Shown: positions 1,625 to 33,940 of the stretch, in pieces
Position numbering within the stretch: position 1 is the stretch's first letter
Layout of the letters: the number at the start of each line of letters is the position of its first letter
Source: Rhodobacteraceae bacterium UBA3087
Lineage (GTDB): Bacteria > Pseudomonadota > Alphaproteobacteria > Rhodobacterales > Rhodobacteraceae
DNA length: 35,301 nt
Direction of reading: 5' to 3'
NCBI GenBank assembly: GCA_002367285.1
Contig: DFBF01000072.1
Span: 1-35,301 of the forward strand
Translations under genes and position numbers: made by a program
The notes under the pieces: generated by a model
The model's input: only the letters and a program-made list of their open reading frames with translations
The model's database searches: none
Told to the model about the DNA's origin: nothing

Positions 1625-1799
1625 GGCAATGAACTCCTGCATCTGGTTCGAAAATCAATTGACTTTGAGAAGACGATAAGGCTGACTTGCGGTCAAGGTA
1701 TTGTTTTATAACGGCGTGCGAAACGGCGACTAGCTTGCGTTCAAGGACGCGGGCAAACTCGCATAGAATAACCACATAGCCCAATATTGGAGGGAGCAG

Positions 1800-2846
1800 A
1801 TGGATTCGGCTGTGCTTTTGCAGTCCAAAGGAGATGACTCGCCCAGTGGCGAGAATCTTGAGTATGATCCCCTGTTTACCGAGATGGAGCTGGCAGGCCA
1901 GCCTGGTGAAGAAACCCAAATCGGTGACAAAATTACAGAAGCCGAAGATCCCGACTATCGCGATCTGGCGAAAACATCGCTGGCTGTTCTGGAAAAAAGC
2001 CACGATTTGCGCGCGGCGATCTTTCTGGCGGATGCGGTTTTACACACCGAGGGCCTGACCGGTTTTGCCGAGGCAACGACCTATATCCGGGGCTGTCTGG
2101 AACAGTTTTGGGACACCTGCCACCCAGAGCTGGACGAAGATGACGACAATGATCCCACCATGCGGATCAACGCAATTCAGGGTCTAAGTGGTCAGCCCGA
2201 CGGTCTGGGTGGCCCATCGCCGGTGTACCGTTCTGTCAGCCGCGCGCCATTGACCGACAGCCGCAGTTTTGGCCGTCTGTCGCTGCGCGAGATAGAGATC
2301 GCCGAAGGTATGATGACGGCCCCAGCGGGCATGGAAAATATCCCCGACACCGCAACTGTATCCGCTGCGTTTCAGGATACTGATGAGGCCCAGTTGGTGG
2401 AATTGCTGGAAGCGGCAAAAACCTCTGAAGAAAACATCAGGGCCATCAGCGCGGTGTTTGACGAACAAACTCCGGGGCAGGGCCCAGAGCTGGACGGGCT
2501 GATTAAATTGCTGATGCAGGTCAAGCGGCGCCTGGCCGACTATGCCGGGGCCGAAGTAGAAGCAGACGATGACGATGCAACCGAAGAGACAGCAGCGTCT
2601 GACGGCGCGCCTGTGGTTGGCGGGGGCAGGGCTGTTGGCGGTATCAATTCGCCAAGTGATGTTTCAAACGCGCTGGACCGGATCGTCGAATATTACAGGC
2701 GCAACGAACCCTCTAGTCCGATTCCGATCATCATCGAAAGGGCCAAGCGTCTGGTCAACGCGGATTTCCTGACAATCATGCAGGACATGGCGCCTCAGGG
2801 GGTTGATAATGTTCATCTTATCGGGGGCATCGACGACGATGACTGA
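1800..2846 (+). CDS. tssA: T6SS TssA (ImpA family, short form)
   Basis: ImpA-N motifs (PSGENLEYDP, SHDLR, FWDTCHPELD, MRINA) and C-terminal EPSSP motif; GGAGGGAG RBS. Confidence 0.95.
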   Translation: MDSAVLLQSKGDDSPSGENLEYDPLFTEMELAGQPGEETQIGDKITEAEDPDYRDLAKTSLAVLEKSHDLRAAIFLADAVLHTEGLTGFAEATTYIRGCLEQFWDTCHPELDEDDDNDPTMRINAIQGLSGQPDGLGGPSPVYRSVSRAPLTDSRSFGRLSLREIEIAEGMMTAPAGMENIPDTATVSAAFQDTDEAQLVELLEAAKTSEENIRAISAVFDEQTPGQGPELDGLIKLLMQVKRRLADYAGAEVEADDDDATEETAASDGAPVVGGGRAVGGINSPSDVSNALDRIVEYYRRNEPSSPIPIIIERAKRLVNADFLTIMQDMAPQGVDNVHLIGGIDDDD

Positions 2847-2945: not shown

Positions 2946-3455
2946 ATGGCGGATAGTTCACAGAAGTTCATAGCGCGCAATCGCGCACCCAGGGTTCAGA
3001 TCGAATATGATGTGGAACTGTACGGGGCTGAAAAGAAGGTTCAGTTACCGTTTGTAATGGGCGTGATGAGCGATCTGGCCGGCAAGTCCGAGGTTGAACA
3101 GCCCGCCGTCGCTGACCGCAAATTCCTTGAGATCGACGTCGACAATTTCGATGATCGGATGAAATCCATGGCGCCACGCGCAGCCTTTACCGTGCCCAAC
3201 ACGCTGACGGGCGAAGGCAATCTGGCGGTTGATATCACCTTTGAAAGCATGGACGATTTTTCGCCCGCTGCAATCGCCGCCAAGGTTGAGCCGCTGAAGG
3301 AACTGTTGGATGCCCGCACCCAGTTGAGCAACCTGATGACCTATATGGACGGCAAAACCGGGGCCGAGGATTTGATCAGTAAGATCATCCAGGACCCAAG
3401 CCTGCTGAAAACGCTGGCTGCCCAGCCCGCGCCCCAAGCTGACAGCGAAGAATAG
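2946..3455 (+). CDS. tssB: T6SS contractile sheath small subunit TssB
   Basis: RAPRVQIEYDVE...LPFVMGVMSDL...FLEIDVDNFD...DDFSP signature; AAGGAG RBS. Confidence 0.98.
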   Translation: MADSSQKFIARNRAPRVQIEYDVELYGAEKKVQLPFVMGVMSDLAGKSEVEQPAVADRKFLEIDVDNFDDRMKSMAPRAAFTVPNTLTGEGNLAVDITFESMDDFSPAAIAAKVEPLKELLDARTQLSNLMTYMDGKTGAEDLISKIIQDPSLLKTLAAQPAPQADSEE

Positions 3456-3464
3456 GAGAGCCCA

Positions 3465-4961
3465 ATGGCCGAAGAACAAGTCCAGGCAGAAGCTGGCGGT
3501 GAAGCCACAGCATTTGGTTCGTCCGAATTTGCGAACCTGTTGCAAAAGGAATTCCGCCCGAAATCCGATCAGGCCAAAACGGCCGTTGAATCGGCCGTCA
3601 AGACACTGGCCGAACAGGCGCTGGCCAACACGGCGCTTATTTCGGACGATGCGCTGCGGTCCATCGAAGGCATAGTCGCCGAGATCGACAAGAAACTGAC
3701 CGAACAGGTCAACCACATCCTGCACCACGCGGAATTCCAGCAGATGGAAAGCGCGTGGCGTGGTCTGCACTATCTGGTGAACAACACCGAGACCGATGAA
3801 CAGCTGAAAATCCGGGTGATGAACATATCCAAGAAGGATATGCACAAGACCCTGCGCAAGTTCAAAGGCACCGCCTGGGACCAGTCGCCGATCTTCAAAA
3901 AGATCTACACCGAAGAATTCAGCCAGTTGGGTGGTGAACCCTATGGCTCGTTGGTTGCGGATTATCACTTTGACCACTCGCCGCCCGATATCGAACTGCT
4001 GGGCGAGATGTCCAAGATTGCCGCTGCAGCCCATGCGCCGCTGATCACCGGGGCGCAGCCGTCGCTGTTCCAGATGGACAGCTGGTCGGAATTGTCCAAC
4101 CCGCGCGATCTGACCAAAATCTTCCAGACACCGGAATACGCTGCCTGGCGGTCCCTGCGCGAAAGCGAGGATTCCAAATATGTCGGGCTGGCCATGCCGC
4201 GGTTCCTGGGGCGCCTGCCTTATGGCTCCAAGACCGATCCGGTCGAGGCGTTTGCCTTTGAAGAAGACACCGATGGGACGGACGCCACTAAATACGGCTG
4301 GGTAAACGCCGCCTATGGCATGGCGATGAACATCACCCGGTCGTTCAAGACCTATGGCTGGTGTTCGCGGATTCGTGGCGTGGAAAGCGGCGGTTCACTG
4401 GAAAGCCTGCCCTCGCATACCTTCCCGACCACCGATGGCGGCGTCGATCAGAAATGTCCGACAGAGATCGCCATTGATGACCGGCGCGAGGCGGAGCTGG
4501 CCAAGAATGGCATGATGCCCCTGATCCACCGCAAGAACACCGATGTCGCGACCTTTATCGGCGCGCAATCGTTGCACAAGCCTGCGGAATATGACGATCC
4601 GGACGCATCGGCCAACGCCAACCTTGGCGCACGCCTGCCCTATCTGTTCGCCACCTGCCGTTTTGCACATTACCTGAAATGTATGGTGCGCGACAAGGTC
4701 GGGTCCTTCAAAAGCCGCCAGGACATGGAAGGCTGGTTGCAGGACTGGATCAACCAATACGTCGATTTCAACGCTGAAATCTCGTCAGAGAATGAAAAAG
4801 CGCGCAAGCCTTTGGCAGCAGCCGAAGTCGTCGTTGAAGAAGTCGAAGGAAACCCCGGATACTACTCGTCCAAATTCTTCCTGCGACCACACTATCAGCT
4901 CGAAGGGCTGTCAGTGTCTCTGCGTCTGGTATCGAAACTGCCGTCGGAAAAAGGCGGCTAA
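3465..4961 (+). CDS. tssC: T6SS contractile sheath large subunit TssC
   Basis: ILHHAEFQQMESAWRGL, PRFLGRLPYG, CPTEIAI, RFAHYLK and RPHYQLEG motifs. Confidence 0.98.
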   Translation: MAEEQVQAEAGGEATAFGSSEFANLLQKEFRPKSDQAKTAVESAVKTLAEQALANTALISDDALRSIEGIVAEIDKKLTEQVNHILHHAEFQQMESAWRGLHYLVNNTETDEQLKIRVMNISKKDMHKTLRKFKGTAWDQSPIFKKIYTEEFSQLGGEPYGSLVADYHFDHSPPDIELLGEMSKIAAAAHAPLITGAQPSLFQMDSWSELSNPRDLTKIFQTPEYAAWRSLRESEDSKYVGLAMPRFLGRLPYGSKTDPVEAFAFEEDTDGTDATKYGWVNAAYGMAMNITRSFKTYGWCSRIRGVESGGSLESLPSHTFPTTDGGVDQKCPTEIAIDDRREAELAKNGMMPLIHRKNTDVATFIGAQSLHKPAEYDDPDASANANLGARLPYLFATCRFAHYLKCMVRDKVGSFKSRQDMEGWLQDWINQYVDFNAEISSENEKARKPLAAAEVVVEEVEGNPGYYSSKFFLRPHYQLEGLSVSLRLVSKLPSEKGG

Positions 4962-5586: not shown

Positions 5587-5613
5587 TGATCTCAAGTGAT
5601 CGGAGCCATCAGC

Positions 5614-6453
5614 ATGACACCCGAAGAGTACCTTAAAGCGGGGGAAATTGATCTTGCCCTAAAGGCATTGCAGGACAAAGTGCGCGCCGACCCGACCGAT
5701 GCTCGTCTGCGGGTTTTCCTGTTTCAGCTTTTGTGTGTCCTTGGGGACTGGAAGCGTGCGATTGCCCAGCTAAAGCTAAGCGCCGAGCTGGACGAATCCG
5801 CCACCATGATGGCCAAGACCTATCGCGAGGCAATCATTTGCGAAGTTTACCGCGAAAAGGTGTTTGCCGGCGAAAAGGAACCGCTGATTTTCGGCGAGCC
5901 ACAGGAATGGCTGGCCCTGCTGATAGAGGCGCAAAAGGTTCTGGCCAAAGGCCAGTCTGACAAGGCCGCGGAATTGCGCACCCGCGCCTTTGACGCCGCC
6001 CCCGCCTGTTCGGGCGAAGTGAATGGCCAGCGGTTTGAATGGATTGCAGATGCCGATATGCGTCTGGGTCCGGTTCTGGAAGTGATCGTGAACGGGCGCT
6101 ATTTCTGGCTGCCGTTCAGCGCGATTGACACCCTGACGATGGATCCGCCGCTGGATCTACGCGATGCGGTCTGGACGGCGGCGACCCTGAAACTGGTCAA
6201 TGGCGGTGAAATTGTCGCCCTTATCCCAACCCGTTACGCCGGAACTGTGGTCAGCGGCGATGCTGCGGCTCTTTTGGCGCGCGCGACCACATGGACAGAT
6301 GCCGGGGACGAGACATTTATCGGCACAGGTCAGCGCCTGCTGGCCACGGATCAGGCCGATATCGCACTGATGGACATTCGCAGTTTGAAAATGGACGACG
6401 CGGGCGAGGCCGGGTCAACAGACGCGGCCCGGGACGCGGCCGACGATGGCTGA
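5614..6453 (+). CDS. tagJ: T6SS accessory protein TagJ (ImpE/SciE/HsiE family)
   Basis: N-terminal TPR-like LFQLLCVLGDW; WIADADMRLGPVLE, LRDAVW and IPTRY motifs. Start placed at ATG 5614 after GGAG. Confidence 0.93.
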   Translation: MTPEEYLKAGEIDLALKALQDKVRADPTDARLRVFLFQLLCVLGDWKRAIAQLKLSAELDESATMMAKTYREAIICEVYREKVFAGEKEPLIFGEPQEWLALLIEAQKVLAKGQSDKAAELRTRAFDAAPACSGEVNGQRFEWIADADMRLGPVLEVIVNGRYFWLPFSAIDTLTMDPPLDLRDAVWTAATLKLVNGGEIVALIPTRYAGTVVSGDAAALLARATTWTDAGDETFIGTGQRLLATDQADIALMDIRSLKMDDAGEAGSTDAARDAADDG

Positions 6454-9865: not shown

Positions 9866-12637
9866 ATGACCGAGATTAGCCGCGTAGCGCTGTTTGGCAA
9901 GCTGAACAAGCTGGGGTATCAGGCCGTTGAAAGTGCAACGGTGTTCTGCAAGATGCGGGGGAATCCCTATGTCGAGGTGGTGCATTGGATGCACCAGATC
10001 CTGAACGGGCAGGACAGTGATATCCACCGGATCATCCAGCATTACGATCTGGACCCGGGCAAAATCGCCAGCGAGATGACCCGCGCGCTGGATATGCTGC
10101 CACGCGGGGCCAGCACGATTTCCGACCTGTCTGATCATCTGATGGATGCGATGGAACGCGGCTGGGTCTGGGGTTCGTTGCTGTATTCCGCAAATCAGGT
10201 GCGCACCGGTTATCTGTTGCTGGGGATGCTGAAAACCCCGGCCTTGCGAAACATCCTGTCCGGTATTTCGACGGAACTGGCCGGCATCGGCCCAGACGAC
10301 CTGGCCGACAATTTCAACGCGGCCACCGATGGTTCCCCCGAAGAACGGCTGGTGCCGCAGGATGGCACGCAAACGGGCGGCGGGGCTGTCCCGGGCGAAG
10401 CCTCGGATGCGATGTCCGCCCAGATGGGCGAACAAGAGGCGCTGTCTCAGTTCTGCACGGACATGACCGAACAAGCGCGCAACGGTGAAATCGACCCTAT
10501 TGTTGGTCGGGACGAGGAAATTCGCCAGATTGTCGACGTTCTGATGCGCCGTCGCCAGAACAACCCGATCCTGACGGGCGAGGCTGGCGTGGGCAAAACG
10601 GCGGTGGTCGAAGGGTTCGCGCTGCGCATCGCGCGCGGGGATGTGCCGCCTGCCTTGCAAGGCGCTCGGCTTTTGATGCTGGACGTGGGTCTGTTGCAGG
10701 CTGGGGCCAGTATGAAGGGTGAGTTCGAGAACCGTTTGAAGCAGGTCATCGAAGAGGTGCAGGCCAGTTCGACGCCAATCGTGATGTTTATAGACGAAAC
10801 ACATACACTGGTCGGGGCGGGGGGGGCTGCCGGAACCGGCGACGCCGCCAACCTGCTGAAACCTGCCCTGGCGCGGGGTACTTTGCGAACAATTGGCGCA
10901 ACAACATGGGCCGAATACAAAAAGCATATCGAAAAAGATCCTGCCCTGACCCGCAGATTTCAGGTGGTTCAGGTTGATGAGCCTGATGAGCAAAAGGCCA
11001 TCAAGATGATGCGCGGAATTGCGGGTATGCTTGAACGTCACCACGATGTTCAAATTCTGGACGAGGCAATTGAGGCTTCGGTAAAACTCTCGGCGCGCTA
11101 TATTCCTGCACGACAGCTTCCGGATAAATCGGTTAGTTTGTTGGACACAGCGGCAGCTCGTGTTTCGATTTCTCAGCATGCCGTTCCAGCCGAAGTCGAT
11201 GATTCTCAGCGGCGCATTCAGTCGCTGGAAACCGAACTTGAAATACTTGGACGCGAAGATGACTCTGGTTACGATGTCGTCGAACGCAAGCGGTATGTCG
11301 AAGAACTGCTGTTTCAGGAAAAAGGACGGTGCGCCAAGCTGGAAGAACGATGGGAAATGGAAAAATCCATTGTTTCGTCGATCAAAGATTGGTGGTCAAA
11401 GGTTACGGGTGCGGAACTGCCTGTGACCGATGCCTCTGACGCAGGTGATCAAGATGTGGCGACAGATAAGGATGCCGCCGCAAAAAGCGAAAACCAAGAA
11501 TCCGTATCTGCCGACGACGCCAAAGCAAGCGATCAGGACAGGTCGCAATTCTTGACCGAGCTGCGAAAGAAACGCGCGGAACTTACAGAGTTCCAGGGTG
11601 AATCTCCGATGGTACAGCCTATTGTTGATGCTCAGGTCGTAGCATCCGTTGTCGGCGACTGGACCGGCATCCCGGTTGGCCGCATGGTCAAGGACGAGAT
11701 CGAAACCATCCTGAACCTCGAAGAACACCTTGCCAAGCGGGTGATCGGCCAGGATCACGCGATGCAGATGATCGTCAAGCGCATTCAGACATCCCGCGCC
11801 GGGCTGGACAACCCGTCCAAACCCATCGGGGTCTTCCTGCTGGCAGGCACCAGCGGCGTGGGTAAAACCGAAACCGCGCTGGCGCTGGCCGAGGTGATGT
11901 ACGGCGGCGAACAGAACGTCATCACCATCAACATGTCCGAATACCAAGAGGCGCATACCGTCAGTTCCCTGAAAGGCGCCCCCCCCGGCTATGTCGGCTA
12001 CGGCGAAGGCGGGGTGCTGACCGAGGCGGTTCGGCGCAAGCCTTATTCAGTGGTGCTGCTGGACGAGGTCGAAAAGGCCCACCCGGACGTGCACGAGATC
12101 TTTTTCCAGGTGTTCGACAAGGGCGTGATGGAAGACGGCGAAGGCCGCACCATTGATTTCAAGAACACCCTGATCCTGCTGACGTCGAACGCCGGGTCGG
12201 AATTGATCATGGATCTGTGTTCAGATCCTGATCTGCTGCCAGAACCCGAAGGCATCGCCAAGGCGCTGCGCGATCCGTTGCTGAAAATCTTTCCGGCGGC
12301 GTTGCTGGGGCGCTTGGTATCGATCCCCTATTATCCGTTGTCGCCCGATATGATCGCCAAGATCACCGTTCTGCAACTGAACCGCATCAAGAAACGCGTG
12401 ACCGAGGCACACGGTGTGCCGTTCGAATACTCTGACGCGGTGGTCGACAAGATTGTCGAACGTTGCCAGGAACTGGAAAGCGGTGGCCGGATGATCGACG
12501 CGATTGTCACCAATACCATGCTGCCCGATATCTCGGCGGAATTCCTGCGCCGGATGATGGAAAGTAAAGACATCAACCGCGTGGCTATCGATGTCCAGGA
12601 TGATGGGTTCACCTATTCGTTTGATGCAGTTGAGTGA
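9866..12637 (+). CDS. clpV: T6SS AAA+ ATPase ClpV (TssH), 923 aa
   Basis: Start MTEISRVALFGKLN at 9866 (the upstream ORF extension overlaps tssG). Two Walker A motifs (GEAGVGKT, GTSGVGKT), Walker B motifs FIDE and LLDE, and PPGYVGYG. Confidence 0.97.
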   Translation: MTEISRVALFGKLNKLGYQAVESATVFCKMRGNPYVEVVHWMHQILNGQDSDIHRIIQHYDLDPGKIASEMTRALDMLPRGASTISDLSDHLMDAMERGWVWGSLLYSANQVRTGYLLLGMLKTPALRNILSGISTELAGIGPDDLADNFNAATDGSPEERLVPQDGTQTGGGAVPGEASDAMSAQMGEQEALSQFCTDMTEQARNGEIDPIVGRDEEIRQIVDVLMRRRQNNPILTGEAGVGKTAVVEGFALRIARGDVPPALQGARLLMLDVGLLQAGASMKGEFENRLKQVIEEVQASSTPIVMFIDETHTLVGAGGAAGTGDAANLLKPALARGTLRTIGATTWAEYKKHIEKDPALTRRFQVVQVDEPDEQKAIKMMRGIAGMLERHHDVQILDEAIEASVKLSARYIPARQLPDKSVSLLDTAAARVSISQHAVPAEVDDSQRRIQSLETELEILGREDDSGYDVVERKRYVEELLFQEKGRCAKLEERWEMEKSIVSSIKDWWSKVTGAELPVTDASDAGDQDVATDKDAAAKSENQESVSADDAKASDQDRSQFLTELRKKRAELTEFQGESPMVQPIVDAQVVASVVGDWTGIPVGRMVKDEIETILNLEEHLAKRVIGQDHAMQMIVKRIQTSRAGLDNPSKPIGVFLLAGTSGVGKTETALALAEVMYGGEQNVITINMSEYQEAHTVSSLKGAPPGYVGYGEGGVLTEAVRRKPYSVVLLDEVEKAHPDVHEIFFQVFDKGVMEDGEGRTIDFKNTLILLTSNAGSELIMDLCSDPDLLPEPEGIAKALRDPLLKIFPAALLGRLVSIPYYPLSPDMIAKITVLQLNRIKKRVTEAHGVPFEYSDAVVDKIVERCQELESGGRMIDAIVTNTMLPDISAEFLRRMMESKDINRVAIDVQDDGFTYSFDAVE

Positions 12638-12646
12638 GGCACCGAT

Positions 12647-13870
12647 ATGGCAACCGTAAACATTCCCATTTGTACAAATGATATGAAGCGGCCGCTAAAG
12701 GCTGCCACCAACCTGAAACATACAGTTCTGCCCAAGACCCTGAAATTCGAAGTCTATCTGCAGGTCGACAAGGAACTGCAGGAACAGATCGAAAATGACG
12801 CGGTTCTGGCTGAAAAGTTATTCAAGAAGGTCAGCGTAGAATACAAAAAAACCGTGACCGATCTTGCGGCAGTGGCCACGGATATCGACCGCGAATTTGG
12901 TAAGGAACTGAAACCCAAAGGCTGGGTTGAAAAAGAATGGCAGAAACGCGCGCCAGAGGTTTTTGAAGATGCCGAGGCGCGGATGCTGACCGAGTCCCGC
13001 AAACTGATCAAGAAATGGCAACAGGTCCGCAAAGATCGTAAAAGCTATGTCATCAAGTCGGCGGTCAAGGTGACAATCGGGTCTTTGTCGGTGGCGACGG
13101 CCTCTTTGGGAACTGCAATTGCCATTGGTGGGGTCGCCACCACTGGCGGCGCGGCGGTTCCGGGGCTGGTCGCGGCGATTTACGCCAACGTCAAAGCGGT
13201 GATTGCGCTGGACAAGGTGCTGCGACGGCTAAAGCGGGACGTGGATGAGGCGGAACAGGAACTGTGGAAGCAGTTGCGCTATCTTCTGGACGCCTATGCC
13301 GACAACACAAAAGGCCAGGTTGCTACCAAGGAACTGGCCAAAGCCGCAGTAGAGCAGTTTTTTTCCGTGTCGATGAAAAGCATCTCGAACGGCGAAAACG
13401 CGATGTTCGATTTCAAAGGCAAGCTCGACAAGGTTGAAATCAACCTGTCGAAAATGGGGATCAAGCTGAACAAGGCATTGACGGATCAGGCGGCCCTGGA
13501 CAAGCAGATCGAAGACAAGATCGGCAAGATGCTGAAACAGGCCAATTACAAATCCAAGAAACTGCCCAAGCTGGTGGCCTCTAGTAAAAAGCTGAACACC
13601 GCCGTCAACGATCTGTTGACCGATATCCCGTTGGCAATCCGCAAGGTTGATGGCGCCCGTGTTCGGCATCGCACGATGTACAAGCCCGCGATGGTGAACC
13701 TGAAAGCCAAGAAACCCGAATGGGTGCAATATGGCGAGGCTGCGCTGAAACTGGGTGATTTGGCGCTGGGCGCTGGGTTCACAGATTTCAGCGCGCTGGA
13801 TAGCATTCTGGTTCTGGTTGATTCAATCGGGGTAGAGTTTGACGACGTCCTGGCAGAAAAGCTTTTGTGA
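12647..13870 (+). CDS. Hypothetical Lys-rich helical protein with a central hydrophobic hairpin (candidate membrane-active effector)
   Basis: 407-aa ORF 9 nt after the clpV stop, GAGG RBS, no signal peptide. Near-uncharged Gly/Ala/Val segment at about aa 140-188. Confidence 0.8.
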   Translation: MATVNIPICTNDMKRPLKAATNLKHTVLPKTLKFEVYLQVDKELQEQIENDAVLAEKLFKKVSVEYKKTVTDLAAVATDIDREFGKELKPKGWVEKEWQKRAPEVFEDAEARMLTESRKLIKKWQQVRKDRKSYVIKSAVKVTIGSLSVATASLGTAIAIGGVATTGGAAVPGLVAAIYANVKAVIALDKVLRRLKRDVDEAEQELWKQLRYLLDAYADNTKGQVATKELAKAAVEQFFSVSMKSISNGENAMFDFKGKLDKVEINLSKMGIKLNKALTDQAALDKQIEDKIGKMLKQANYKSKKLPKLVASSKKLNTAVNDLLTDIPLAIRKVDGARVRHRTMYKPAMVNLKAKKPEWVQYGEAALKLGDLALGAGFTDFSALDSILVLVDSIGVEFDDVLAEKLL

Positions 13871-13941: not shown

Positions 13942-14796
13942 ATGGATGAGATGACGGAAAACACCTCACAGACGTCACGCGACAAAGCTCGGGCGTTTGT
14001 CGAACGCAAGGCGGTGACAAATTCGATCCTGGGTGTGATCATCTTCAACGCGATCACGTTGGGCATGTCGACATCCCACGTTATCATGGCAGAAATCGGC
14101 GGCCTTTTGAACGTGATCGACAAGGTGGTTCTGACGATCTTCGTGGCCGAACTGCTGGTGAAATTCTATGCCTATCGCTGGAGTTTCTTCAAAAACGCCT
14201 GGAACATTTTCGACCTGTTGGTCGTCAGCATCGGCCTGTTGCCGGACAGGGGTGGGTTGTCGGCCTTGCGGGGTCTGCGGGTGATCCGGGCGATGCGGCT
14301 GCTATCCGTTGTGCCGCAGATGCGCGCCGTTGTGCAGGCGTTGCTGGACGCGCTGCCGGGGATGGGCGCGGTCATCATCATGTTGTCGATCGTTTATTAC
14401 GTCTTTGCCGTCATGGCGACGCTGATGTATGGGCCGACCTTTGATGTCTGGTTTGGCACGCTTGGTCGATCACTGTATTCTCTGTTCCAGATCATGACGT
14501 TGGAAAGCTGGTCAATGGGCATTGTGCGCCCGGTGATGGTTGAACACCCGACGGCCTGGGCGTTCTTTGTTCCCTTCATCATCATCACCGCGTTTTCTGT
14601 TCTGAACCTGTTCATCGGTCTGCTGGTCAACACCATGCAATCCGCAGTGGAGGACGAGGCCGAGGCGGAATTTGAAAAGCTGCGCGATCTGGTAAAATCT
14701 GAAACCGATCTGGTGGACGAACACGTTCTTGCGATGCACCAAGAGATCAAGGCGCTGCGGGCAGAGGTGGTTGCGATGAAAGGTAACGGCACATGA
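13942..14796 (+). CDS. Bacterial voltage-gated sodium channel (BacNav, NaChBac/NavAb family)
   Basis: Six hydrophobic segments; S3 WNIFD; S4 LRGLRVIRAMRLL (14269-14298); S4-S5 linker PQMRAVV; filter TLESWSM (14497-14517); S6 NLFIG; C-terminal coiled coil. Confidence 0.95.
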   Translation: MDEMTENTSQTSRDKARAFVERKAVTNSILGVIIFNAITLGMSTSHVIMAEIGGLLNVIDKVVLTIFVAELLVKFYAYRWSFFKNAWNIFDLLVVSIGLLPDRGGLSALRGLRVIRAMRLLSVVPQMRAVVQALLDALPGMGAVIIMLSIVYYVFAVMATLMYGPTFDVWFGTLGRSLYSLFQIMTLESWSMGIVRPVMVEHPTAWAFFVPFIIITAFSVLNLFIGLLVNTMQSAVEDEAEAEFEKLRDLVKSETDLVDEHVLAMHQEIKALRAEVVAMKGNGT

Positions 14797-17700
14797 CGGA
14801 CAGCTCACAGAAATTCATTGCCCGCAACCGCGCCCCACGGGTCCAGATCGAATATGATGTGGAACTTTACGGGTCCGAGAAGAAAGTGCAGCTGCCCTTT
14901 GTCATGGGGGTGATGTCTGATCTGTCGGGCAGGTCAAAGGTTCAACAGCCAAGTATCGCAGATCGCAGTTTTCTGGAAATTGACGTCGATAATTTCGATG
15001 ACCGGATGCGCGCGATGCAACCGCGCGCGGCATTTTCGGTGCCCAATACCCTGACGGGCGAAGGCAATATCGCCATCGATCTGACCTTCGAAAAGATGGA
15101 TGACTTTTCCCCGGCGGCAATTGCGGCCAAGGTCGAACCGCTGCGCCCCTTGCTAGAGGCGCGCAGTCAGCTATCTGATCTGATGGCCTATATGGATGGC
15201 AAAGCCGGTGCCGAGGCGCTGATCGAAAAGATCCTGTCGGACCCGGCTTTGTTATCGGCGGTGTCCAGTGCCGCATCCGCAGACGGTGACCAAACCGCCG
15301 CGCTGGACAGTCTGCGCGCGCTGACACCAGAGGATCCGCCGGACACCGATAGTACAGGCGGCATTCTGGATGCTCTGAAGGGCAACGCACCCGAAGATGC
15401 GCCCATTCCGGATCGTAGTGCTGACGTTCTGTCCAACCTGGCCGCCCTGCCGGTTACGCAAAACCTGACACCAGATACATCCGACGCTGTCTTTGACGGC
15501 TTGCGGCAAGCTGCGCCCGAAGACACGCCGCAAGACAATTCCCAGAGCGACGCCCTCGCCGCGCTGCGCACCCAGACTCCGGTAGATCAGCAGGGGCCCG
15601 ACACCGCAACAGAAGACGCGCTTGCAGCTCTGGCGGCTCAAACCCCGCAGGCCGTTGAAGAGGTTGATACAACTTCTGCTGCTTTCGGCAGCCTGGCCGC
15701 AGTGGAAACGCCCGAGATCATGGACGAGTCTCCTGATGCTCTGCTTACTGACCTTGCCAGTTCCGCGCCCATCGCCGCGCCGGAACCAGATAATACAACC
15801 GCTGCGCTGGACAGCCTGGCCGACCTTGAAGTGTCGGCAGCTGTCGAAGACACGACGGACGACCTTTTGGCGGAGCTGGCCGAAACCGCGCCCACGGTTG
15901 CGCCGGAACCGGATAACACCGTTTCCGCATTGGATAGCCTTTCTGGCCTCGAAATACCCGAGGTTGCGCAGGACACGACAGACGATTTGCTAGCCGAACT
16001 CGCCGGATCTGTGTCCAAAGAACCGTCGGAACCAGACACTATATCGGCTGCATTGGACAGTTTGGCCGGACTAGACGTGCCTGAGCGCGCGGAAGAAACA
16101 ATAGATGATCTGTTGGCTGATCTCGCGGATGCCGCCCCCGAAGCGATCGCTGAGTCGGAGGATGCAGCGTTAGTGGCTTTTGACAGTCTTGCTGACCTGG
16201 AAACCCCCGAGGATGGGGGCGCGGATACGCTGGACGACCTGCTGGCCGAAGACACTGGTATCGACGACTTTGATGATCTGTTGGGCGATCTTGGGCCGGA
16301 CGATACAGATGTTGCAGCAGTTGCGGAAACAGAGCCTGAAGCAACCGATCTTGACGATCTATTGGCCGAAGACTCAGGTACCGGCGACCTTGACGATCTG
16401 TTGGGCGATCTTGGGATGGACGACGCAACATCTGACACTGCGGCGGAAACGGTGGAAACTGCGGCAGAGGCGGACGAATTGGACGATCTGCTGGGCGATC
16501 TGGAGGATGATGCAGGCGACGATCTGGACGACCTTCTTGGGGACCTTGACGATCTCGGTGACGGTGAATCGGAGCAGGCAAGTACCACCTCGGATCCGGT
16601 GGGGGCGTCCTTATCGAAAGAGCCGGAATTTGCCTATGGTCAGCTCAGCGCTGACCGGCCCAGCGCCGAGCGGTTGAACCGAAAACGGTTCCGGTTGGCG
16701 GTCTTGGGCGACTTTTCCGGTCGGGCGGCGCGGGGGCAGTTGGAAACCGGTGATGCGCTGGCGGCCCGCAAGCCGATCCTGCTGGATCCCGATACGGTCG
16801 AGGACGTGATCGAAGGGTTCGCCACCGATCTGGTGTTGCCCATCGGCAAGGACGGATCCGGGATTGCGGTTAAACTGGGCGGGTTGGATGATCTGCACCC
16901 GGACGAGCTTTATAAAAATGTTGAGATTTTTACTGAACTGGTGGCCCTGCGCAGGCAACTGAACAGTGGGGCCACGGCGGAAAACGCCGCCCGTCAGTTG
17001 CGGCAATGGGGTGAAAAATACGACACACATGTTGCGCCGACGCGCAGCCGGTCATCTGGCAACTCGGTGCCCGCTGACCTTAAACTCAGCGATTTCCAGA
17101 AGCTGATCGGCGACACATCAGCCACGTTGACTCTGGCGTCGCCCCTGGACGAGTTGATGGCGCAAATCGTCGGCCCGCATATCCGGACACTCCCCGATGC
17201 CGACATCGTGGCGATGCGCGGCGCGGTGGATCAGGCGCTGTCAGCCGCAATGCGACTGGTACTGCACCACCCGGAATTCCAGTCAGTCGAGGCGCAGTGG
17301 CGATCGCTCGACCTGATCGCGCGCAGTATCGAAGATGACGATACGCTGGACGTCATGCTGTATGACATTTCCGCCGAAGAGATTGCCGCCGATCTGGCAA
17401 CAGCGGATGATCTGTCGCAAACCGGCTTTGTGCGATTGCTGACCGAAGGCCCGCTGGACGAGAAAAACGGCCGCGGCGGCTATTCGGCGCTGATCGGGTT
17501 GTATACATTCGAAGAAACGCCGCCGCATGCGGAATTGCTGGGCCGGATCGCCCGGGTTGCGGCGCATGTGGACGCGCCGTTTATCGCCGCGATCACCCCG
17601 ACATTCCTGGACACTGACAAACAGAACCGTCACCCGTTGGTGGCCAATGCCTGGGACATCCTGCGCGACATGCCCGAGGCAGGGCATCTGGGCCTGGCGT

Positions 17701-18299
17701 CACCCCGGTTCCTGCTGCGCCAGCCTTATGGCGCAAAATCCGAACCTATTTATGAGTTCGAGTTCGAGGAATTCACCATGTCGGCGGGGCTGCGCGGCAT
17801 GTTATGGGCCAATCCGGTGGTTCTGGTGGCGATCCTGCTGGCGAAATCTTTCCGCCAGAACGGCGCCAGTATGGGTCTTGGGTCAATCATGTCGCTAGGC
17901 GGGATACCGTTCTATTTTGTCAATGACCGCTATGGCGATCAGGTGGCTCTGCCCTGTACCGAACGCAATCTAACACTGGATAAGGTTGAACAGGCCAATG
18001 GCCGCGGGATCATGTCGGTTGTGTCGATCAAGGGGCGCGATGAAATCCGGCTGGCATCATTCAATTCCCTGGCGGGGGCCGAAATTCTGGGCCCGTGGAG
18101 CGGCATAGAAGCGCCACCGCCATCGCCGCCAAAACCCAAACCTGCTGCCGCCGCACCCGAAACAGTGGACTCTGACGACAGTTCAGGCAACGATAGCGAT
18201 CTGGACGACCTGCTGGCGGGTTTCGGCGATGATCTGGATTTAGGCGGTGACGATGATGACACCGACGCTGATCTGGCTGCGCTGCTGGCAGATTTATAA
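14793..18299 (+). CDS. Sheath chimera: TssB + acidic repeat linker + divergent TssB-like domain + TssC N-domain + acidic tail (1168 aa)
   Basis: aa 1-154 are about 80% identical to TssB at 2946 (manual count, 29 differences). Second TssB-like domain RFRLAVLGDFSGR...LDDLHPD. TssC-like VLHHPEFQSVEAQWRSL, PRFLLRQPYG and LPCTE motifs. Confidence 0.9.
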   Translation: MTDSSQKFIARNRAPRVQIEYDVELYGSEKKVQLPFVMGVMSDLSGRSKVQQPSIADRSFLEIDVDNFDDRMRAMQPRAAFSVPNTLTGEGNIAIDLTFEKMDDFSPAAIAAKVEPLRPLLEARSQLSDLMAYMDGKAGAEALIEKILSDPALLSAVSSAASADGDQTAALDSLRALTPEDPPDTDSTGGILDALKGNAPEDAPIPDRSADVLSNLAALPVTQNLTPDTSDAVFDGLRQAAPEDTPQDNSQSDALAALRTQTPVDQQGPDTATEDALAALAAQTPQAVEEVDTTSAAFGSLAAVETPEIMDESPDALLTDLASSAPIAAPEPDNTTAALDSLADLEVSAAVEDTTDDLLAELAETAPTVAPEPDNTVSALDSLSGLEIPEVAQDTTDDLLAELAGSVSKEPSEPDTISAALDSLAGLDVPERAEETIDDLLADLADAAPEAIAESEDAALVAFDSLADLETPEDGGADTLDDLLAEDTGIDDFDDLLGDLGPDDTDVAAVAETEPEATDLDDLLAEDSGTGDLDDLLGDLGMDDATSDTAAETVETAAEADELDDLLGDLEDDAGDDLDDLLGDLDDLGDGESEQASTTSDPVGASLSKEPEFAYGQLSADRPSAERLNRKRFRLAVLGDFSGRAARGQLETGDALAARKPILLDPDTVEDVIEGFATDLVLPIGKDGSGIAVKLGGLDDLHPDELYKNVEIFTELVALRRQLNSGATAENAARQLRQWGEKYDTHVAPTRSRSSGNSVPADLKLSDFQKLIGDTSATLTLASPLDELMAQIVGPHIRTLPDADIVAMRGAVDQALSAAMRLVLHHPEFQSVEAQWRSLDLIARSIEDDDTLDVMLYDISAEEIAADLATADDLSQTGFVRLLTEGPLDEKNGRGGYSALIGLYTFEETPPHAELLGRIARVAAHVDAPFIAAITPTFLDTDKQNRHPLVANAWDILRDMPEAGHLGLASPRFLLRQPYGAKSEPIYEFEFEEFTMSAGLRGMLWANPVVLVAILLAKSFRQNGASMGLGSIMSLGGIPFYFVNDRYGDQVALPCTERNLTLDKVEQANGRGIMSVVSIKGRDEIRLASFNSLAGAEILGPWSGIEAPPPSPPKPKPAAAAPETVDSDDSSGNDSDLDDLLAGFGDDLDLGGDDDDTDADLAALLADL
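15288..16560 (+). repeat. Degenerate coding tandem repeats in the chimera linker
   Basis: About 15 units of 20-21 aa; CGGAACC recurs at 15781, 15904 and 16027 (123-bp period). Followed by DLDDLL units with a 120-bp period (16233, 16353). Confidence 0.9.
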
Positions 18300-18362: not shown

Positions 18363-20498
18363 ATGGCAGAGAGTAAGCCACATGAACACTCACTGGTCTG
18401 GATGTCTGGCGGATATCAGGCCCAGGATATTCTGCTGAAGCGCGCGATTGTTCGCGAAGGGCTTAGCAAACTTACCGAGACCACAGTTGAATTTCAGTCA
18501 AAAAACAAAGCGGTCAAGCTGGAGGGGTTCGTCGGACAGGCCATGAATGTGCACATCATGGCTGAGGGCGGCAAGGAACGAATGTTCACCGGTGTGTGTG
18601 TATCAGCTGAAAACCTTGGGTTTCGCGACGGGTATGGCCATTACGTGGCCGAAGTTCGGCCCTGGTTCTGGATGCTGACCCGCACCCAGGACTGCCGGGT
18701 GTTTCAGGAGATGCACGTCGTAGATATCATCACTCAAGTCTTAAAAGACCGCGGGTTTTCCGAAATTCAGAACCGGTTAAGCGACACCTACGAGGTGCGC
18801 GCCTATTGCGTTCAATACCGCGAGACAGATTATGATTTCGTCTGCCGCCTGATGGAGGAAGAGGGCATCTATTACTATCTGGACAACAAGATGGATGCCA
18901 ACAAAATTGAAAAGCTTGTCCTGTGTGATGGCGTGGGCGGACATTCACCGGTGTCCGGCAATTCGACTTTGGAATATCACGCGCGCGATAATAAAGACCG
19001 CAGACGCGAGGATCACATTGCCGAATGGGCCGCCGAAGAAAGCCTGACGAGGGGCAAGGTAACCCTGAACGATTTTGACTTTATGAATCCAACGGGTGAA
19101 CAGAAAGCCATCAGCACGATCGAAAATGGCGATCACAGATACTTTAAACACGAGGTTTACGACTATTCCGGCCACCATCACGGTGAAAACGCCAGTGTCA
19201 AACAAGCCAGTCCAGCTAAAAAAGTTGTAGCGACCAAGCAGGCGCAAGTCCGGATGGAAGCCGAGGCGATCCGCCACAAACGCTGGCGCGGGGCAGGCAG
19301 TGTGCGCACCCTGGGCACCGGCAATTGGTTCAAGCTGCAGGACCACCCGGATGCTGATGCCAACAAGGAATACCTGGTTACTGACGCCATCCACTATATT
19401 CAGGTCTCATCAGATTTTGCCGATAAGGATCTGCGCCACGATCTTGACGCGCGGAACATGGATTTCCCCGAAGAGATGAAGGGCGATGCCTATGCCTGCA
19501 CCTTTGGCGCGATCCCCAAACTGGACCAGTTTCGCGCCCCACTGACGACGCCATGGCCGGAAATATCCGGGCTGCACACGGCTATTGTTGTGGGCCCCAG
19601 CGGCGAAGAGATTCACACTGACAAATACGGCCGGATCAAGGTTCAGTTCCATTGGGACCGCAAAGGCAAGAAGGACGAAAAATCGTCCTGCTGGGTCCGC
19701 GTGGTCACGCCATGGTCGGGTAAGAACTGGGGCATGGTCGCGGTGCCGCGCATGGGCCAGGAGGTGGTCATTCAGTTTGAAGAGGGCGACCCGGACAGGC
19801 CGATCTGTTCGGGTATGCTTTACAATGAAGACACAATGCCGCCCTACAAGTATCCTGACGATCAGACGCAGGTCGGGATACGGACGGATTCGTCAAAGGA
19901 TGTCAATGACGCCAAGGCGTATAATGAGCTGATGTTTGACGACAAAGCGGACAGTGAAATGATGCGCGTGCAGGCGCAAAAAGACCATCAGATGCTGATC
20001 AAGAACAAATCAGTGGTCACCATCGGTCTGGATGAGGTTGATACCGGTGATCATGATGATGAAGGCAGTTTAAGCCAGGTGGTCCAAAACCATGTTACGG
20101 AGATGATCAAGGATGGTGATCACTACGTCACCATCGAAAAGGGCGACGAAGAGATCAAGATAGAGACCGGCAGCCAGCTGTTGGAGATCAAGAAGGACAA
20201 GACTCAGACGATAGAAGGCAAACACACCAAGACGATCACTGGAAATGACGCCACAACCGTCAAAACCGGCAACATGACGGTCGACGTCAAATCGGGCAAG
20301 ATCACGATGACGGCGGCGATTGAAATCATGCTTAAGGTTGGGGGATCATCGATCAAAATCGACAATTCAGGTGTGACGATCAAAGGCCCGATTATCAAAA
20401 TCCAGGCCGACGGCATGGCAGAAATGAAAAGTCCGGCCACCACAGTCAAAGGCGACGGAATGCTGACCCTCAAGGGTGGCATTACGATGATCAACTAG
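18363..20498 (+). CDS. vgrG: T6SS spike VgrG (TssI), no C-terminal effector extension
   Basis: YCVQYRETDYDFVCRLMEEEGIYY, DKYGRIKVQFHWDR, PRMGQEV and GDPDRP motifs; beta-repeat C-terminus. Confidence 0.97.
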   Translation: MAESKPHEHSLVWMSGGYQAQDILLKRAIVREGLSKLTETTVEFQSKNKAVKLEGFVGQAMNVHIMAEGGKERMFTGVCVSAENLGFRDGYGHYVAEVRPWFWMLTRTQDCRVFQEMHVVDIITQVLKDRGFSEIQNRLSDTYEVRAYCVQYRETDYDFVCRLMEEEGIYYYLDNKMDANKIEKLVLCDGVGGHSPVSGNSTLEYHARDNKDRRREDHIAEWAAEESLTRGKVTLNDFDFMNPTGEQKAISTIENGDHRYFKHEVYDYSGHHHGENASVKQASPAKKVVATKQAQVRMEAEAIRHKRWRGAGSVRTLGTGNWFKLQDHPDADANKEYLVTDAIHYIQVSSDFADKDLRHDLDARNMDFPEEMKGDAYACTFGAIPKLDQFRAPLTTPWPEISGLHTAIVVGPSGEEIHTDKYGRIKVQFHWDRKGKKDEKSSCWVRVVTPWSGKNWGMVAVPRMGQEVVIQFEEGDPDRPICSGMLYNEDTMPPYKYPDDQTQVGIRTDSSKDVNDAKAYNELMFDDKADSEMMRVQAQKDHQMLIKNKSVVTIGLDEVDTGDHDDEGSLSQVVQNHVTEMIKDGDHYVTIEKGDEEIKIETGSQLLEIKKDKTQTIEGKHTKTITGNDATTVKTGNMTVDVKSGKITMTAAIEIMLKVGGSSIKIDNSGVTIKGPIIKIQADGMAEMKSPATTVKGDGMLTLKGGITMIN

Positions 20499-21428: not shown

Positions 21429-22898
21429 ATGACAGTCACGCTTAAATTCCAGTCCTCCGGTACGATCCCGGGCGGTGCCCAGCCGACGCAGATGCGCGGG
21501 GGCAGCCTGGCAATCGGGCGTGGCCCGGAAAATGATATGGTTTTGCCGGATCCCGACAGGATGCTGTCCAAGAACCATTGTGTAGTCGAAGACCATAACG
21601 GCAATGTGCTGGTGGTGGATCTGTCGACCAATGGCACCTTTTTGAATTATTCCAAAATCCCGCTGGGCAGGATTCCGACACCGCTGAACAATGGTGATAT
21701 TCTGTGCATCGGCACTTATGAATTGCTGGTCGAAATCGGCGGCGAGTTGCCTGATTTCGACGACAGGATAGCCGCTCCGACGACCCAGGCCCAGGTGTCA
21801 CCTGGCGTGGCCGAAAATGCGCCTGACCCGATGCGCCTGCTGGAGGATGCACAACCGGGCGGGGATTTCCTGGATGATCTGCTGGGCAGTGAAGGCGGGC
21901 CGACCGGACCATCGCAACTGAACCCCGTTGACCCGATTGACGAACTTCTGCCGCCATTGGGTGAAGACGAGGATCCGTTTTTTCAGAAACCTGAAGACGG
22001 GCGCGAAGGCACAGGCGCCAGTCTGGGAATGCACAGCTCGACTGCTCAGGACAGTTTCCACTCGCAGGCACCCTCAACCAGCCAGATCCCCGAAGACTGG
22101 GACGATTTGCTGGGCCCGCCAGTGTCATCACAACCCGTGCCCGAATTCTTGCCAGAGCCTGCGCAAGCACCCCGCGTAAAAACGCCCCCGGTGCTTCCCG
22201 TGGCAGATGGCATAACGGGCGCTACCCAAGTATCTGTCCCCGCATCTGCACCGGAAACTATACCGCAACCACCCGCCCCGGTGGCAGAGGGTCAAATCGC
22301 TGCCCCGACAGGTGACGGTGACGCGGCACGTGCCTTTCTGGCGGCTGTCGGGGCCGAGGATGCTCAGATTGCTGACGCAGATCTGACCGCGACGATGGCC
22401 CGGATGGGGCGGGTGATGAAGACGTTGGTTACCGGGCTGCGCGAAATCCTGATGACCCGCACGTCGATCAAATCTGAATTCCGCATCGAACAGACGATGA
22501 TCGGGGCAGGCAGCAACAACCCCCTGAAATTCTCGATTAGCCCGGAACAGGCGATTGACGCGATGGTGCGGCCAACCACCAAGGGCTATCTCAGCCCGGA
22601 AGCTGCTGCCGAACAGGCGTTGAATGACATCAAGGCGCATGAAATCGCCATGGTCACCGGGATGGAAGCGGCGCTAAAAGGCGTACTGACCAAGCTGAAC
22701 CCCGAAGTTCTGGCCGGTCAGATCGAAACCAGCGGCGCCTTTGGCAGCCTGTTGCGTGGGAAAAAAGCGCGGTATTGGGAAGTTTACGAAAAAATCTATG
22801 CCGAGATCTCGGATCAGGCCGAATATGATTTTCACGACTTGTTCAGCCGTGAATTCGCGCGGGCGTACAAGGAACAGCTGGACAAGCTGAAAGAATAA
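21429..22898 (+). CDS. tagH: T6SS FHA-domain protein TagH (Fha)
   Basis: FHA motifs IGRGPEND, SKNHC and DLSTNGTF; Pro/acidic linker; C-terminal NNPLKF, DIKAHEIAM and F..AY.EQ motifs. Confidence 0.95.
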   Translation: MTVTLKFQSSGTIPGGAQPTQMRGGSLAIGRGPENDMVLPDPDRMLSKNHCVVEDHNGNVLVVDLSTNGTFLNYSKIPLGRIPTPLNNGDILCIGTYELLVEIGGELPDFDDRIAAPTTQAQVSPGVAENAPDPMRLLEDAQPGGDFLDDLLGSEGGPTGPSQLNPVDPIDELLPPLGEDEDPFFQKPEDGREGTGASLGMHSSTAQDSFHSQAPSTSQIPEDWDDLLGPPVSSQPVPEFLPEPAQAPRVKTPPVLPVADGITGATQVSVPASAPETIPQPPAPVAEGQIAAPTGDGDAARAFLAAVGAEDAQIADADLTATMARMGRVMKTLVTGLREILMTRTSIKSEFRIEQTMIGAGSNNPLKFSISPEQAIDAMVRPTTKGYLSPEAAAEQALNDIKAHEIAMVTGMEAALKGVLTKLNPEVLAGQIETSGAFGSLLRGKKARYWEVYEKIYAEISDQAEYDFHDLFSREFARAYKEQLDKLKE

Positions 22899-33358: not shown

Positions 33359-33940
33359 CTATCCCAGCGCCTGAAACTCTACCCGCCGATTGACGTCGCC
33401 GCGTGGATTGGCGCTGTCGTAAGGCGCGCTTTCGCCCAGGCCAACCGCCTCTAACCGGGTTTCGTCAATGCCGCAGGCAGACACCAGATGGTGCTTTACC
33501 TCCTGGGCGCGCAACAGGGACAGGCGTTCGTTATATTTTGCCTTGCCCGAACTGTCAGTGTGGCCAATGATCTGAAACATCGAAACATCAACCGCTTGCA
33601 TCGCCTGACACAGGGCCGCCAGTTTTGGCTTTTGGTCCTCGCGCAGGGCGGCGCTGTCAAAGTCGAATGCGATCTGGATGTTTACCTGATCTTCTTTTTC
33701 GACAGCCGCATAATTCGGCTGCGCCGCTGCGGGTGCGACCTCGGTCGTGTTGTCGGCACCGGCTGTTGCCTGCTGCGCAGATGGTACGATAACCAGACCG
33801 CGGGTTTTCTGCTTTTTGAAAGCGGTGGCCATTTCTTCGGCGGTCATTTCAGATTCGGACTGAGCCTGCCCGCTGGTTGGCATTGCAAAGCTGAACCCGG
33901 TGATAATGAGACATGTAAAAATAGTACTGAGACGGACCAT
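33359..33940 (-). CDS. Exported OmpA-family peptidoglycan-binding protein
   Basis: Signal peptide; FDFDSA, GHTDSSG, LSLLRA and NRRVEF motifs. Confidence 0.92.
   Translation of the reverse strand: MVRLSTIFTCLIITGFSFAMPTSGQAQSESEMTAEEMATAFKKQKTRGLVIVPSAQQATAGADNTTEVAPAAAQPNYAAVEKEDQVNIQIAFDFDSAALREDQKPKLAALCQAMQAVDVSMFQIIGHTDSSGKAKYNERLSLLRAQEVKHHLVSACGIDETRLEAVGLGESAPYDSANPRGDVNRRVEFQALG

What the first reader, a model, noticed from the sequence alone, without database searches (positions are those of the whole stretch)
14793..18299. TssB-linker-TssB'-TssC' chimeric sheath protein
Seen: a conserved TssB (14793-15254), about 430 aa of acidic repeats, a divergent TssB-like domain (about 16670-16960), and a TssC-like domain (about 17225-18075). 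The TssC-like part stops at the equivalent of AQSL and lacks the RFAHYLK/RPHYQL C-terminal region of TssC, then ends in a Pro/Asp tail. Established: sheaths polymerise from TssB/TssC heterodimers, and second TssC paralogues exist (Agrobacterium ImpC/ImpD). Inference: the N-terminal TssB could co-polymerise with TssC and tether a polymerisation-defective TssBC unit on a long leash, acting as a cap, length limiter, nucleator or inter-sheath crosslink.
Basis: partly seen in the sequence, partly recalled or inferred. Interest (0 to 1): 0.85.

Follow-up and report, generated by a model that had tools for sequence, protein, structure and literature searches.

The report
Leashed non-polymerising T6SS sheath mimic (TssCL)
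This gene in a bacterial type VI secretion cluster encodes TssCL, a protein already noted in print but untested, which joins a sheath subunit through a long acidic linker to a one-chain copy of the sheath building block that lacks the part needed to extend the sheath, and which likely acts as a stopper and recycling handle for the firing sheath.

Summary
The 1168-aa ORF is real and is TssCL, described in silico in roseobacters (Suria 2022, PMC9515649). It reads TssB copy, 450-aa acidic linker, TssB'C' module, acidic tail; 118 of the top 120 homologues share this. New here: the module is an old third sheath lineage, a single-chain protomer without the handshake domain (0 of 150 representatives have it). 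It stands alone in T6SS-bearing genomes of six or more phyla, is fused to TssA in one clade, and its ClpV-recognition helix matched the class of the partner TssC in 42 of 42 classed pairs, though only 1-2 are independent. The TssB graft arose once and was lost repeatedly; 7 same-type loci lack the gene, so it is accessory. Best reading (0.4): a sheath-tethered, non-extending protomer that plugs a free handshake slot and gives ClpV a grip. The scan found the stand-alone module before on other DNA (e1-2698734).

The parts
14793..18299 (+). tssCL, whole ORF, 1168 aa
14793..15272 (+). N-terminal TssB copy (aa 1-160); aa 4-20 match the HsiB1 peptide that binds TagJ/HsiE1
   Evidence: 76% to locus TssB; peptide in PMC4239648 passages; these copies form one group apart from canonical TssB, 96% SH-aLRT
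15273..16622 (+). acidic linker (aa 161-610): short amphipathic helices about every 21 aa, then LDDLL-type motifs; predicted disordered
   Evidence: composition; pLDDT mostly under 50 with 13 short helices; spacing 20-21 in 382 of 955 intervals over homologues; no long DNA-level tandem array
16626..16640 (+). module's own N-terminal aromatic-Gly motif (aa 612-616), candidate remnant of the TssB arm
   Evidence: G616 invariant; strand-like motif in 65 of 83 scored stand-alone relatives vs 12.8 in shuffles
16632..17009 (+). TssB'-like part of the module (aa 614-739)
   Evidence: hhalign to TssB 8-143, probability 96.7%
17046..18098 (+). TssC'-like part of the module (aa 752-1102), ends before the gp25-like domain 1
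   Evidence: hhalign to TssC 6-375; model aligns to TssC1 63-402 of 5n8n, Z 26.5, rmsd 4.0, 304 aligned
17085..17111 (+). helix matching TssC's ClpV-recognition helix, H1-type (aa 765-773)
18099..18296 (+). Pro/acidic tail with two short helices; the last 11 aa form a conserved terminal helix
   Evidence: terminal motif in 237 of 239 close homologues; absent in 53 of 125 full-length distant representatives
2946..4961 (+). canonical tssB (2946-3455) and tssC (3465-4961), the likely partners of the N-terminal domain
1800..2846 (+). short tssA; a TssA of this kind is fused to the module in another lineage
5596..6453 (+). tagJ/impE
9866..12637 (+). clpV, ClpV1-type N-terminus (Arg at position 6)
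   Evidence: class defined in PMC4239648 passages
13942..14796 (+). voltage-gated cation channel gene whose stop overlaps the tssCL start (ATGA)
   Evidence: Pfam Ion_trans E 1e-38; overlap; in 16 of 19 assessable module loci, 1 of 7 module-less loci
18363..20498 (+). vgrG, directly downstream

Best explanation
TssCL is an accessory protein of this type VI secretion system whose C-terminal module, a one-chain sheath protomer missing the handshake domain, likely docks on the sheath without extending it and likely gives the recycling ATPase ClpV a grip. Steps: (1, shown) the module has sheath domains 2 and 3 in one chain and lacks domain 1 and the TssC C-terminal strand. (2, inferred from sheath architecture) it could donate its N-terminal arm to a free handshake slot, which exists only in the last ring, but could accept no further ring, so it would act as a stopper. 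(3, inferred from covariation) its ClpV-recognition helix would let ClpV pull it off or start disassembly there. (4, inferred) in roseobacters the added TssB copy likely pairs with ordinary TssC and is built into the sheath, so the flexible acidic linker would hold the module close to the growing or contracted sheath; lineages without the graft would rely on the module's own arm or on fusion to TssA. Confidence by step: non-polymerising accessory 0.85; TssB copy pairs with TssC 0.75; read by ClpV 0.55; acts at the sheath end 0.45.
For: Fold: AF2 model pTM 0.86; aligns to TssC1 63-402 and, over residues 24-499, to the single-chain pyocin sheath 24-292 of 385 (3j9q, Z 15.3, rmsd 3.9, 234 aligned). 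No domain 1 in 0 of 150 representatives, control 19 of 19 TssC. Subunits link by two strands to the ring nearer the baseplate and TssE resembles domain 1 (PMC5813253 passages). Module clade 100%, apart from TssC and from tandem second TssCs. 27 of 30 genomes whose module gene has no tssC beside it hold a domain-1 TssC elsewhere. Arm-like motif in 65 of 83 vs 12.8 shuffled; in 6 loci of one lineage an acidic repeat linker lies between that arm and the module body, a second leash design. Module-linker-TssA fusions in 6 of 23 proteins scanned, one from a 6.6-Mb record of Planctomycetales 10988; TssA Nt1 binds TssBC (PMC11106082 passages). Recognition helix class agrees with the partner TssC in 42 of 42 strictly classed pairs. 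Gene order clpV-module-vgrG here and in 7 distant loci. Purifying selection on both folded parts.
Against: No binding was tested. The helix covariation rests on 2 changes on the module tree and 1-2 independent pairs, which cannot reach significance; 14 of 56 pairs were unclassed under the strict pattern and the 56 of 56 figure comes from a pattern fitted after seeing the data. For ClpV1-type systems such as this one, the TssC N-terminal helix was not required for the ClpV1 interaction (PMC4239648 passages). In the model the module's N-terminal motif makes a short bridge within the chain, not a free strand, and in fused forms it is short. The four TssA fusions placed on the tree form one clade, so they count as one event, and none was found in 301 genomes of the class searched. 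7 same-type loci lack the gene, so any stopper role is dispensable. No RNA or protein evidence of expression.
Confidence: 0.4

Rival explanations
1. Pure cap or stochastic terminator (closest to the first reader): the module plugs the last ring and sets when growth stops, in proportion to the TssCL:TssB ratio; ClpV plays no special part and the recognition helix is kept for folding.
For: Arm motif without acceptor domain; fusions to TssB and to TssA both place it where subunits are added.
Against: Does not explain why the helix follows the partner TssC class; sheaths already stop at the far membrane; location of short TssA is disputed.
Confidence: 0.2
2. Soluble decoy or buffer: the module mimics a free protomer and titrates ClpV, TssA or (through the TssB copy) TagJ away from the sheath, timing assembly or firing without sitting on the sheath.
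For: Self-contained confident fold; often an orphan gene away from the cluster; keeps the recognition helix; TssB copy keeps the TagJ-binding peptide.
Against: A decoy needs no leash, yet leashes arose three times; the TssB copy keeps its whole TssC-binding region invariant; module occurs in clusters where no tagJ was seen.
Confidence: 0.2
3. Multivalent scaffold: the LDDLL-type helices of linker and tail are the working part, binding the same partner as the matching motif in TagH/Fha, and tie the sheath to the membrane complex, to other sheaths or to the neighbouring channel.
For: Among the locus proteins checked, the motif occurs only in TagH and TssCL; kept in TagH of 12 of 14 loci; terminal helix in 237 of 239; channel gene coupled in 16 of 19 module loci.
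Against: 53 of 125 full-length representatives have no tail at all; no channel hit near any of 80 distant modules; 3 family loci with the module lack the channel.
Confidence: 0.12
4. Nucleator at the baseplate: the module binds TssE and seeds the first ring.
For: TssE is a domain-1 homologue that accepts arms; the module lacks exactly that domain.
Against: It offers no acceptor for the next ring and would occupy the TssE slot; 7 loci work without it on paper.
Confidence: 0.06
5. Assembly artefact or decaying duplicate.
For: Repeat-rich linker; a few loci are broken at assembly gaps or frameshifted (L029, L072).
Against: 118 of 120 homologues alike; one unbroken contig; dN/dS 0.07-0.34.
Confidence: 0.01

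Closest known systems
TssCL (Suria et al. 2022, PMC9515649)
   Same: Two VipA domains plus one VipB domain, similar identities to the cluster's TssB and TssC, in an H1-like roseobacter cluster that keeps tssB and tssC; module 73% identical to a Leisingera sp. ANG-M7 protein (P0133).
   Different: Shorter (1168 vs 1684 aa). The paper reads TssCL as a recent fusion of sheath genes; here only the TssB graft is recent and the module is an old family. In the passages read it does not discuss the missing domain 1, the linker or a mechanism.
TssB/TssC sheath protomer (P. aeruginosa H1, PDB 5n8n; V. cholerae VipA/VipB)
   Same: Domains 2 and 3, N-terminal recognition helix.
   Different: One chain; no domain 1, no C-terminal strand; separate clade.
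Tandem second TssC (Agrobacterium ImpD/TssC40 type)
   Same: Divergent extra TssC-like gene; ImpD is non-redundant with ImpC (PMC3702570 passages).
   Different: The 7 second-copy proteins examined keep domain 1, carry no TssB part and group apart. Agrobacterium ImpD itself was not fetched; the label is my inference from gene order.
TagA/TsmA, TagB/TsmB and TagJ firing coordinators (review PMC13584744)
   Same: Accessory, non-universal factors that tune sheath growth, dwell or recycling.
   Different: No ImpA_N or ImpE domain; built from the sheath fold itself; the review text holds no 'TssCL', 'roseobacter' or 'Leisingera'.
Phage/pyocin tail terminators (recalled, no call)
   Same: By recall, they close the last sheath ring by donating a strand.
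   Different: The module has the sheath fold, not a tube-like terminator fold; the paper I wanted for this was not held.

Membership tests
TssCL | N-terminal VipA domain highly similar to the cluster's TssB (86% in the paper) | tested here: met
   76% over 166 aa, 81% over 151 aa
TssCL | second, shorter, divergent VipA domain (26% in the paper) | tested here: met
   23%; two Pfam VipA stretches
TssCL | single VipB domain about 31% identical to TssC | tested here: met
   32% over 244 aa; no VipB_2
TssCL | separate tssB and tssC kept in the same cluster | tested here: met
   2946-3455 and 3465-4961
TssCL | roseobacter H1-like cluster without tssJ | tested here: inconclusive
   H1-like order, tagJ and ClpV1-type ClpV; PF12790 not found, but the genome is 75% complete
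canonical TssC (VipB) | VipB N-terminal domain | tested here: met
canonical TssC (VipB) | C-terminal gp25-like domain 1 and linker strand | tested here: not met
   TIGR03355 score 134 vs cut-off 271.5
ImpD-type second TssC | full-length TssC paralogue with domain 1 and no TssB part, next to tssC | tested here: not met
TagA/TsmA | ImpA_N domain | tested here: not met
   no PF06812 hit in this protein
FimV (a database label on 15 or so homologues) | FimV family domains and membrane anchor | tested here: not met
   no such Pfam or NCBIfam hit; the label likely comes from the acidic linker
sheath stopper / ClpV handle (proposed function) | binds sheath, ClpV or TssA | not testable with these tools

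The most novel reading that the evidence does not exclude
TssCL is the roseobacter form of an unrecognised third T6SS sheath paralogue, spread over six or more phyla: a handshake-less single-chain protomer that terminates the sheath and serves as ClpV's pull-tab, tethered three separate ways (TssB graft, TssA fusion, own arm on an acidic leash). It would be a dedicated T6SS sheath terminator made from the sheath fold, and would couple the end of growth to the start of recycling.
Probability: 0.3. Interest if true: 0.8.

Novelty: new member of a known kind. Interest (0 to 1): 0.55.

Why it matters
How a T6SS sheath stops growing and how ClpV is loaded in systems with short TssA and no TagA are open points. 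TssCL gives a direct test in culturable roseobacters: natural forms with, without and with half of the gene exist in otherwise identical clusters. The protein itself is published; its old, widespread core, the TssA fusions and the helix matching were not found in print by my searches (open-access library only). The family is also filed as TssB or TssC in databases, which can mislead T6SS typing.

Tried and rejected
Complex prediction of module with TssA Nt1 was not available: no verdict. No RNA holder listed: no evidence on expression either way. A single-sequence search of 401 genomes of the phylum found the whole module only in 3 genomes of the own family, but profile searches later found diverged modules in Gammaproteobacteria, so that blank reflects the query. 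No TssA fusion in 301 genomes of another class. No conserved unknown neighbour around 79 distant modules apart from Ser/Thr kinases (16 loci) and lineage-specific genes. Mean identity of other T6SS proteins does not separate loci with and without the module. TagJ dependence rejected: module sits in clusters where no tagJ was seen. Ruler role rejected. Promoter/terminator scan near chance (5 vs 2.8; 4 vs 5.6). Pfam Pardaxin hit (E 0.002, under cut-off) ignored as chance. First tree of the TssC-like core dropped 22 of 57 rows through a faulty pattern and was redone with all 57. Sedimenticola L096 looked like an independent helix switch but not, so I do not count it. Atlas look-up of the module gave only VipA+VipB clusters; the look-up for ORF 12647-13870 did not complete. 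Paper search for T6SS with bacterial sodium channels listed 15 of 59 papers, none holding 'T6SS'.
Full report
Observation. The ORF 14793-18299 is one frame of 1168 aa. It lies in a complete T6SS cluster: tssA, tssB, tssC, hcp, tagJ, tssE, tssF, tssG, clpV, an unknown ORF, an ion-channel gene, this ORF, vgrG, DUF6931, PAAR, tagH, tssK, tssL, tssM, tagF, a phosphatase and a kinase. Residues 1-160 are a TssB copy (76% to the locus TssB), 161-610 an acidic linker, about 612-1102 a TssB'-TssC' module, and 1103-1168 an acidic tail. The genome holds no other copy. One contig of run X1, possibly the source, spans the gene unbroken; a second strain in another study covers most of it in pieces without indels. 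118 of the best 120 of 408 homologues have the same architecture, the other two being partial; the linker runs from 164 to 858 aa.

Already in print. Suria et al. [quoted passage not shown] It is the only paper in the library with the word. A 2026 review of T6SS accessory factors has no occurrence of it (PMC13584744, passages). Searches for fused TssB-TssC wording and for T6SS sheaths of Planctomycetes or Acidobacteria gave nothing on the stand-alone module in the listings and passages seen.

What the module is. AlphaFold2 folds residues 609-1168 with pTM 0.86. The model matches TssC chains (5n8n 63-402, Z 26.5, rmsd 4.0, 304 aligned) and, from its start, single-chain sheaths (pyocin 3j9q 24-292 of 385). 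So it is a whole protomer in one chain, minus the inner gp25-like domain. In sheaths each subunit sends two strands to the ring nearer the baseplate and that inner domain, like TssE, accepts them (PMC5813253, passages). The module lacks the acceptor and the TssC strand, so it could not carry a further ring (inference). In the full-length model the TssB copy is of low confidence alone and the linker is a string of short helices of low confidence, spaced by about 21 residues.

History. In 301 genomes of the family, 33 have the module and 44 others only TssC-like matches. Of 20 module loci fetched, 12 are fused (one across an assembly gap), 6 stand alone, 1 has linker without TssB and 1 is cut by a contig end. 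All 13 N-terminal TssB copies group apart from 18 canonical TssB (96%), while stand-alone forms need 5 changes on a TssC+ClpV tree of 18 loci: one graft and repeated loss is the simplest reading, though the trees are unrooted. Seven of the 44 genomes have the same cluster type (TssC 71-89% identical) with no module between clpV and vgrG. Both folded parts are under purifying selection: dN/dS 0.07-0.12 for the TssB copy and 0.10-0.34 for the module in 7 pairs with saturated dS, 0.07 in one close pair.

Wider family. A profile search of 1.84 billion representatives returned 150 best hits, 125 covering the whole module, none with domain 1; 53 end right after the core with no tail. 22 of 43 long loci have tssC within 10 kb, and 7 loci repeat the order clpV-module-vgrG. 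27 of 30 genomes without an adjacent tssC hold one elsewhere. On a tree of 57 rows the modules (31), TssC (19) and tandem second TssCs (7) each form one side of a strongly supported branch. The module is therefore an old third lineage, which revises the paper's idea of a recent fusion.

Clues to mechanism. First, an arm-like N-terminal motif in 65 of 83 scored stand-alone proteins (12 of 95 not scored) against 12.8 in shuffles; in 6 loci it is separated from the body by acidic repeats. Second, fusions module-linker-TssA in 6 of 23 proteins chosen for scanning, one from a complete-size record; they are one clade. TssA's Nt1 domain binds TssB and TssC together (PMC11106082, passages). Third, TssC's N-terminal helix comes in two classes that co-evolve with ClpV (PMC4239648, passages). 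The module keeps this helix, and its class agrees with the TssC of the same genome in 42 of 42 strictly classed pairs, 14 of 56 unclassed, 4 loci dropped for lack of a full TssC; a looser pattern fitted afterwards gives 56 of 56. This is only 2 changes on the tree and 1-2 independent pairs, so it is a lead, and the same paper found the helix dispensable for the ClpV1 contact. Fourth, the TssB copy keeps the TagJ-binding peptide and the TssC-binding region. That TssB tolerates C-terminal additions on the sheath surface is recalled, not from a call.

Verdict. New member of a known kind (TssCL), with a wider family and mechanism that my searches did not find in print. Best explanation, 0.4: a leashed, non-extending protomer that plugs the sheath and gives ClpV a grip. 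Rivals: pure cap 0.2, soluble decoy 0.2, motif scaffold 0.12, nucleator 0.06, artefact 0.01. Interest 0.55: the architecture is published, but the locus offers a direct test of how sheath growth ends and recycling starts.

Noticed in passing
window 13942-14796 (+): Bacterial voltage-gated sodium-channel-type gene (Pfam Ion_trans; filter TLESWSM, family label recalled) inside the T6SS operon, overlapping the tssCL start; 57-78% identical copies in 16 of 19 assessable module loci and 1 of 7 module-less loci. Kin are not independent. No T6SS link in the 15 papers listed. Could tie firing to membrane potential.
   Followed up: partly
window 12647-13870 (+); same slot in L021, L023, L028, L031, L032, L035-L040, L069: Variable slot after clpV holding Lys/Ala-rich 300-410 aa proteins with no convincing family, several unrelated to each other; possible effector or adaptor slot.
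   Followed up: partly
window 21429-22898 (+), tagH: TagH's central linker carries LDDLL-type motifs like those of TssCL, kept in 12 of 14 loci with or without the module; the reader of this motif is unknown.
   Followed up: partly
P0291, P0305, P0307, P0326, P0333, P0335: Module-acidic linker-TssA fusions of 943-1517 aa; P0335 is QGJ71950.1 of Planctomycetales bacterium 10988. Genomic context not obtained.
   Followed up: partly
L170, L173-L177: Modules whose N-terminal arm is followed by 100-130 aa of acidic DPFAS-type repeats before the folded body.
   Followed up: partly
window 119-1642 (-): 507-aa Ala-rich protein divergent from tssA, no family; its first 130 aa match ORFs upstream of tssA in L073.
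   Followed up: no
window 31076-33313 (-), 33359-33940 (-), 34127-34966 (+): PpkA-like kinase with a long periplasmic part, an OmpA-like protein and an M15 peptidase close the cluster; no tssJ found in this 75% complete genome.
   Followed up: no
L031:16619-17690: Two tandem hcp genes in one related cluster; Hcp diverges far more (27-72%) than its neighbours across these loci.
   Followed up: no
L072:406-2695: A module split by a frameshift next to an assembly gap in G200; real break or assembly error not determined.
   Followed up: no
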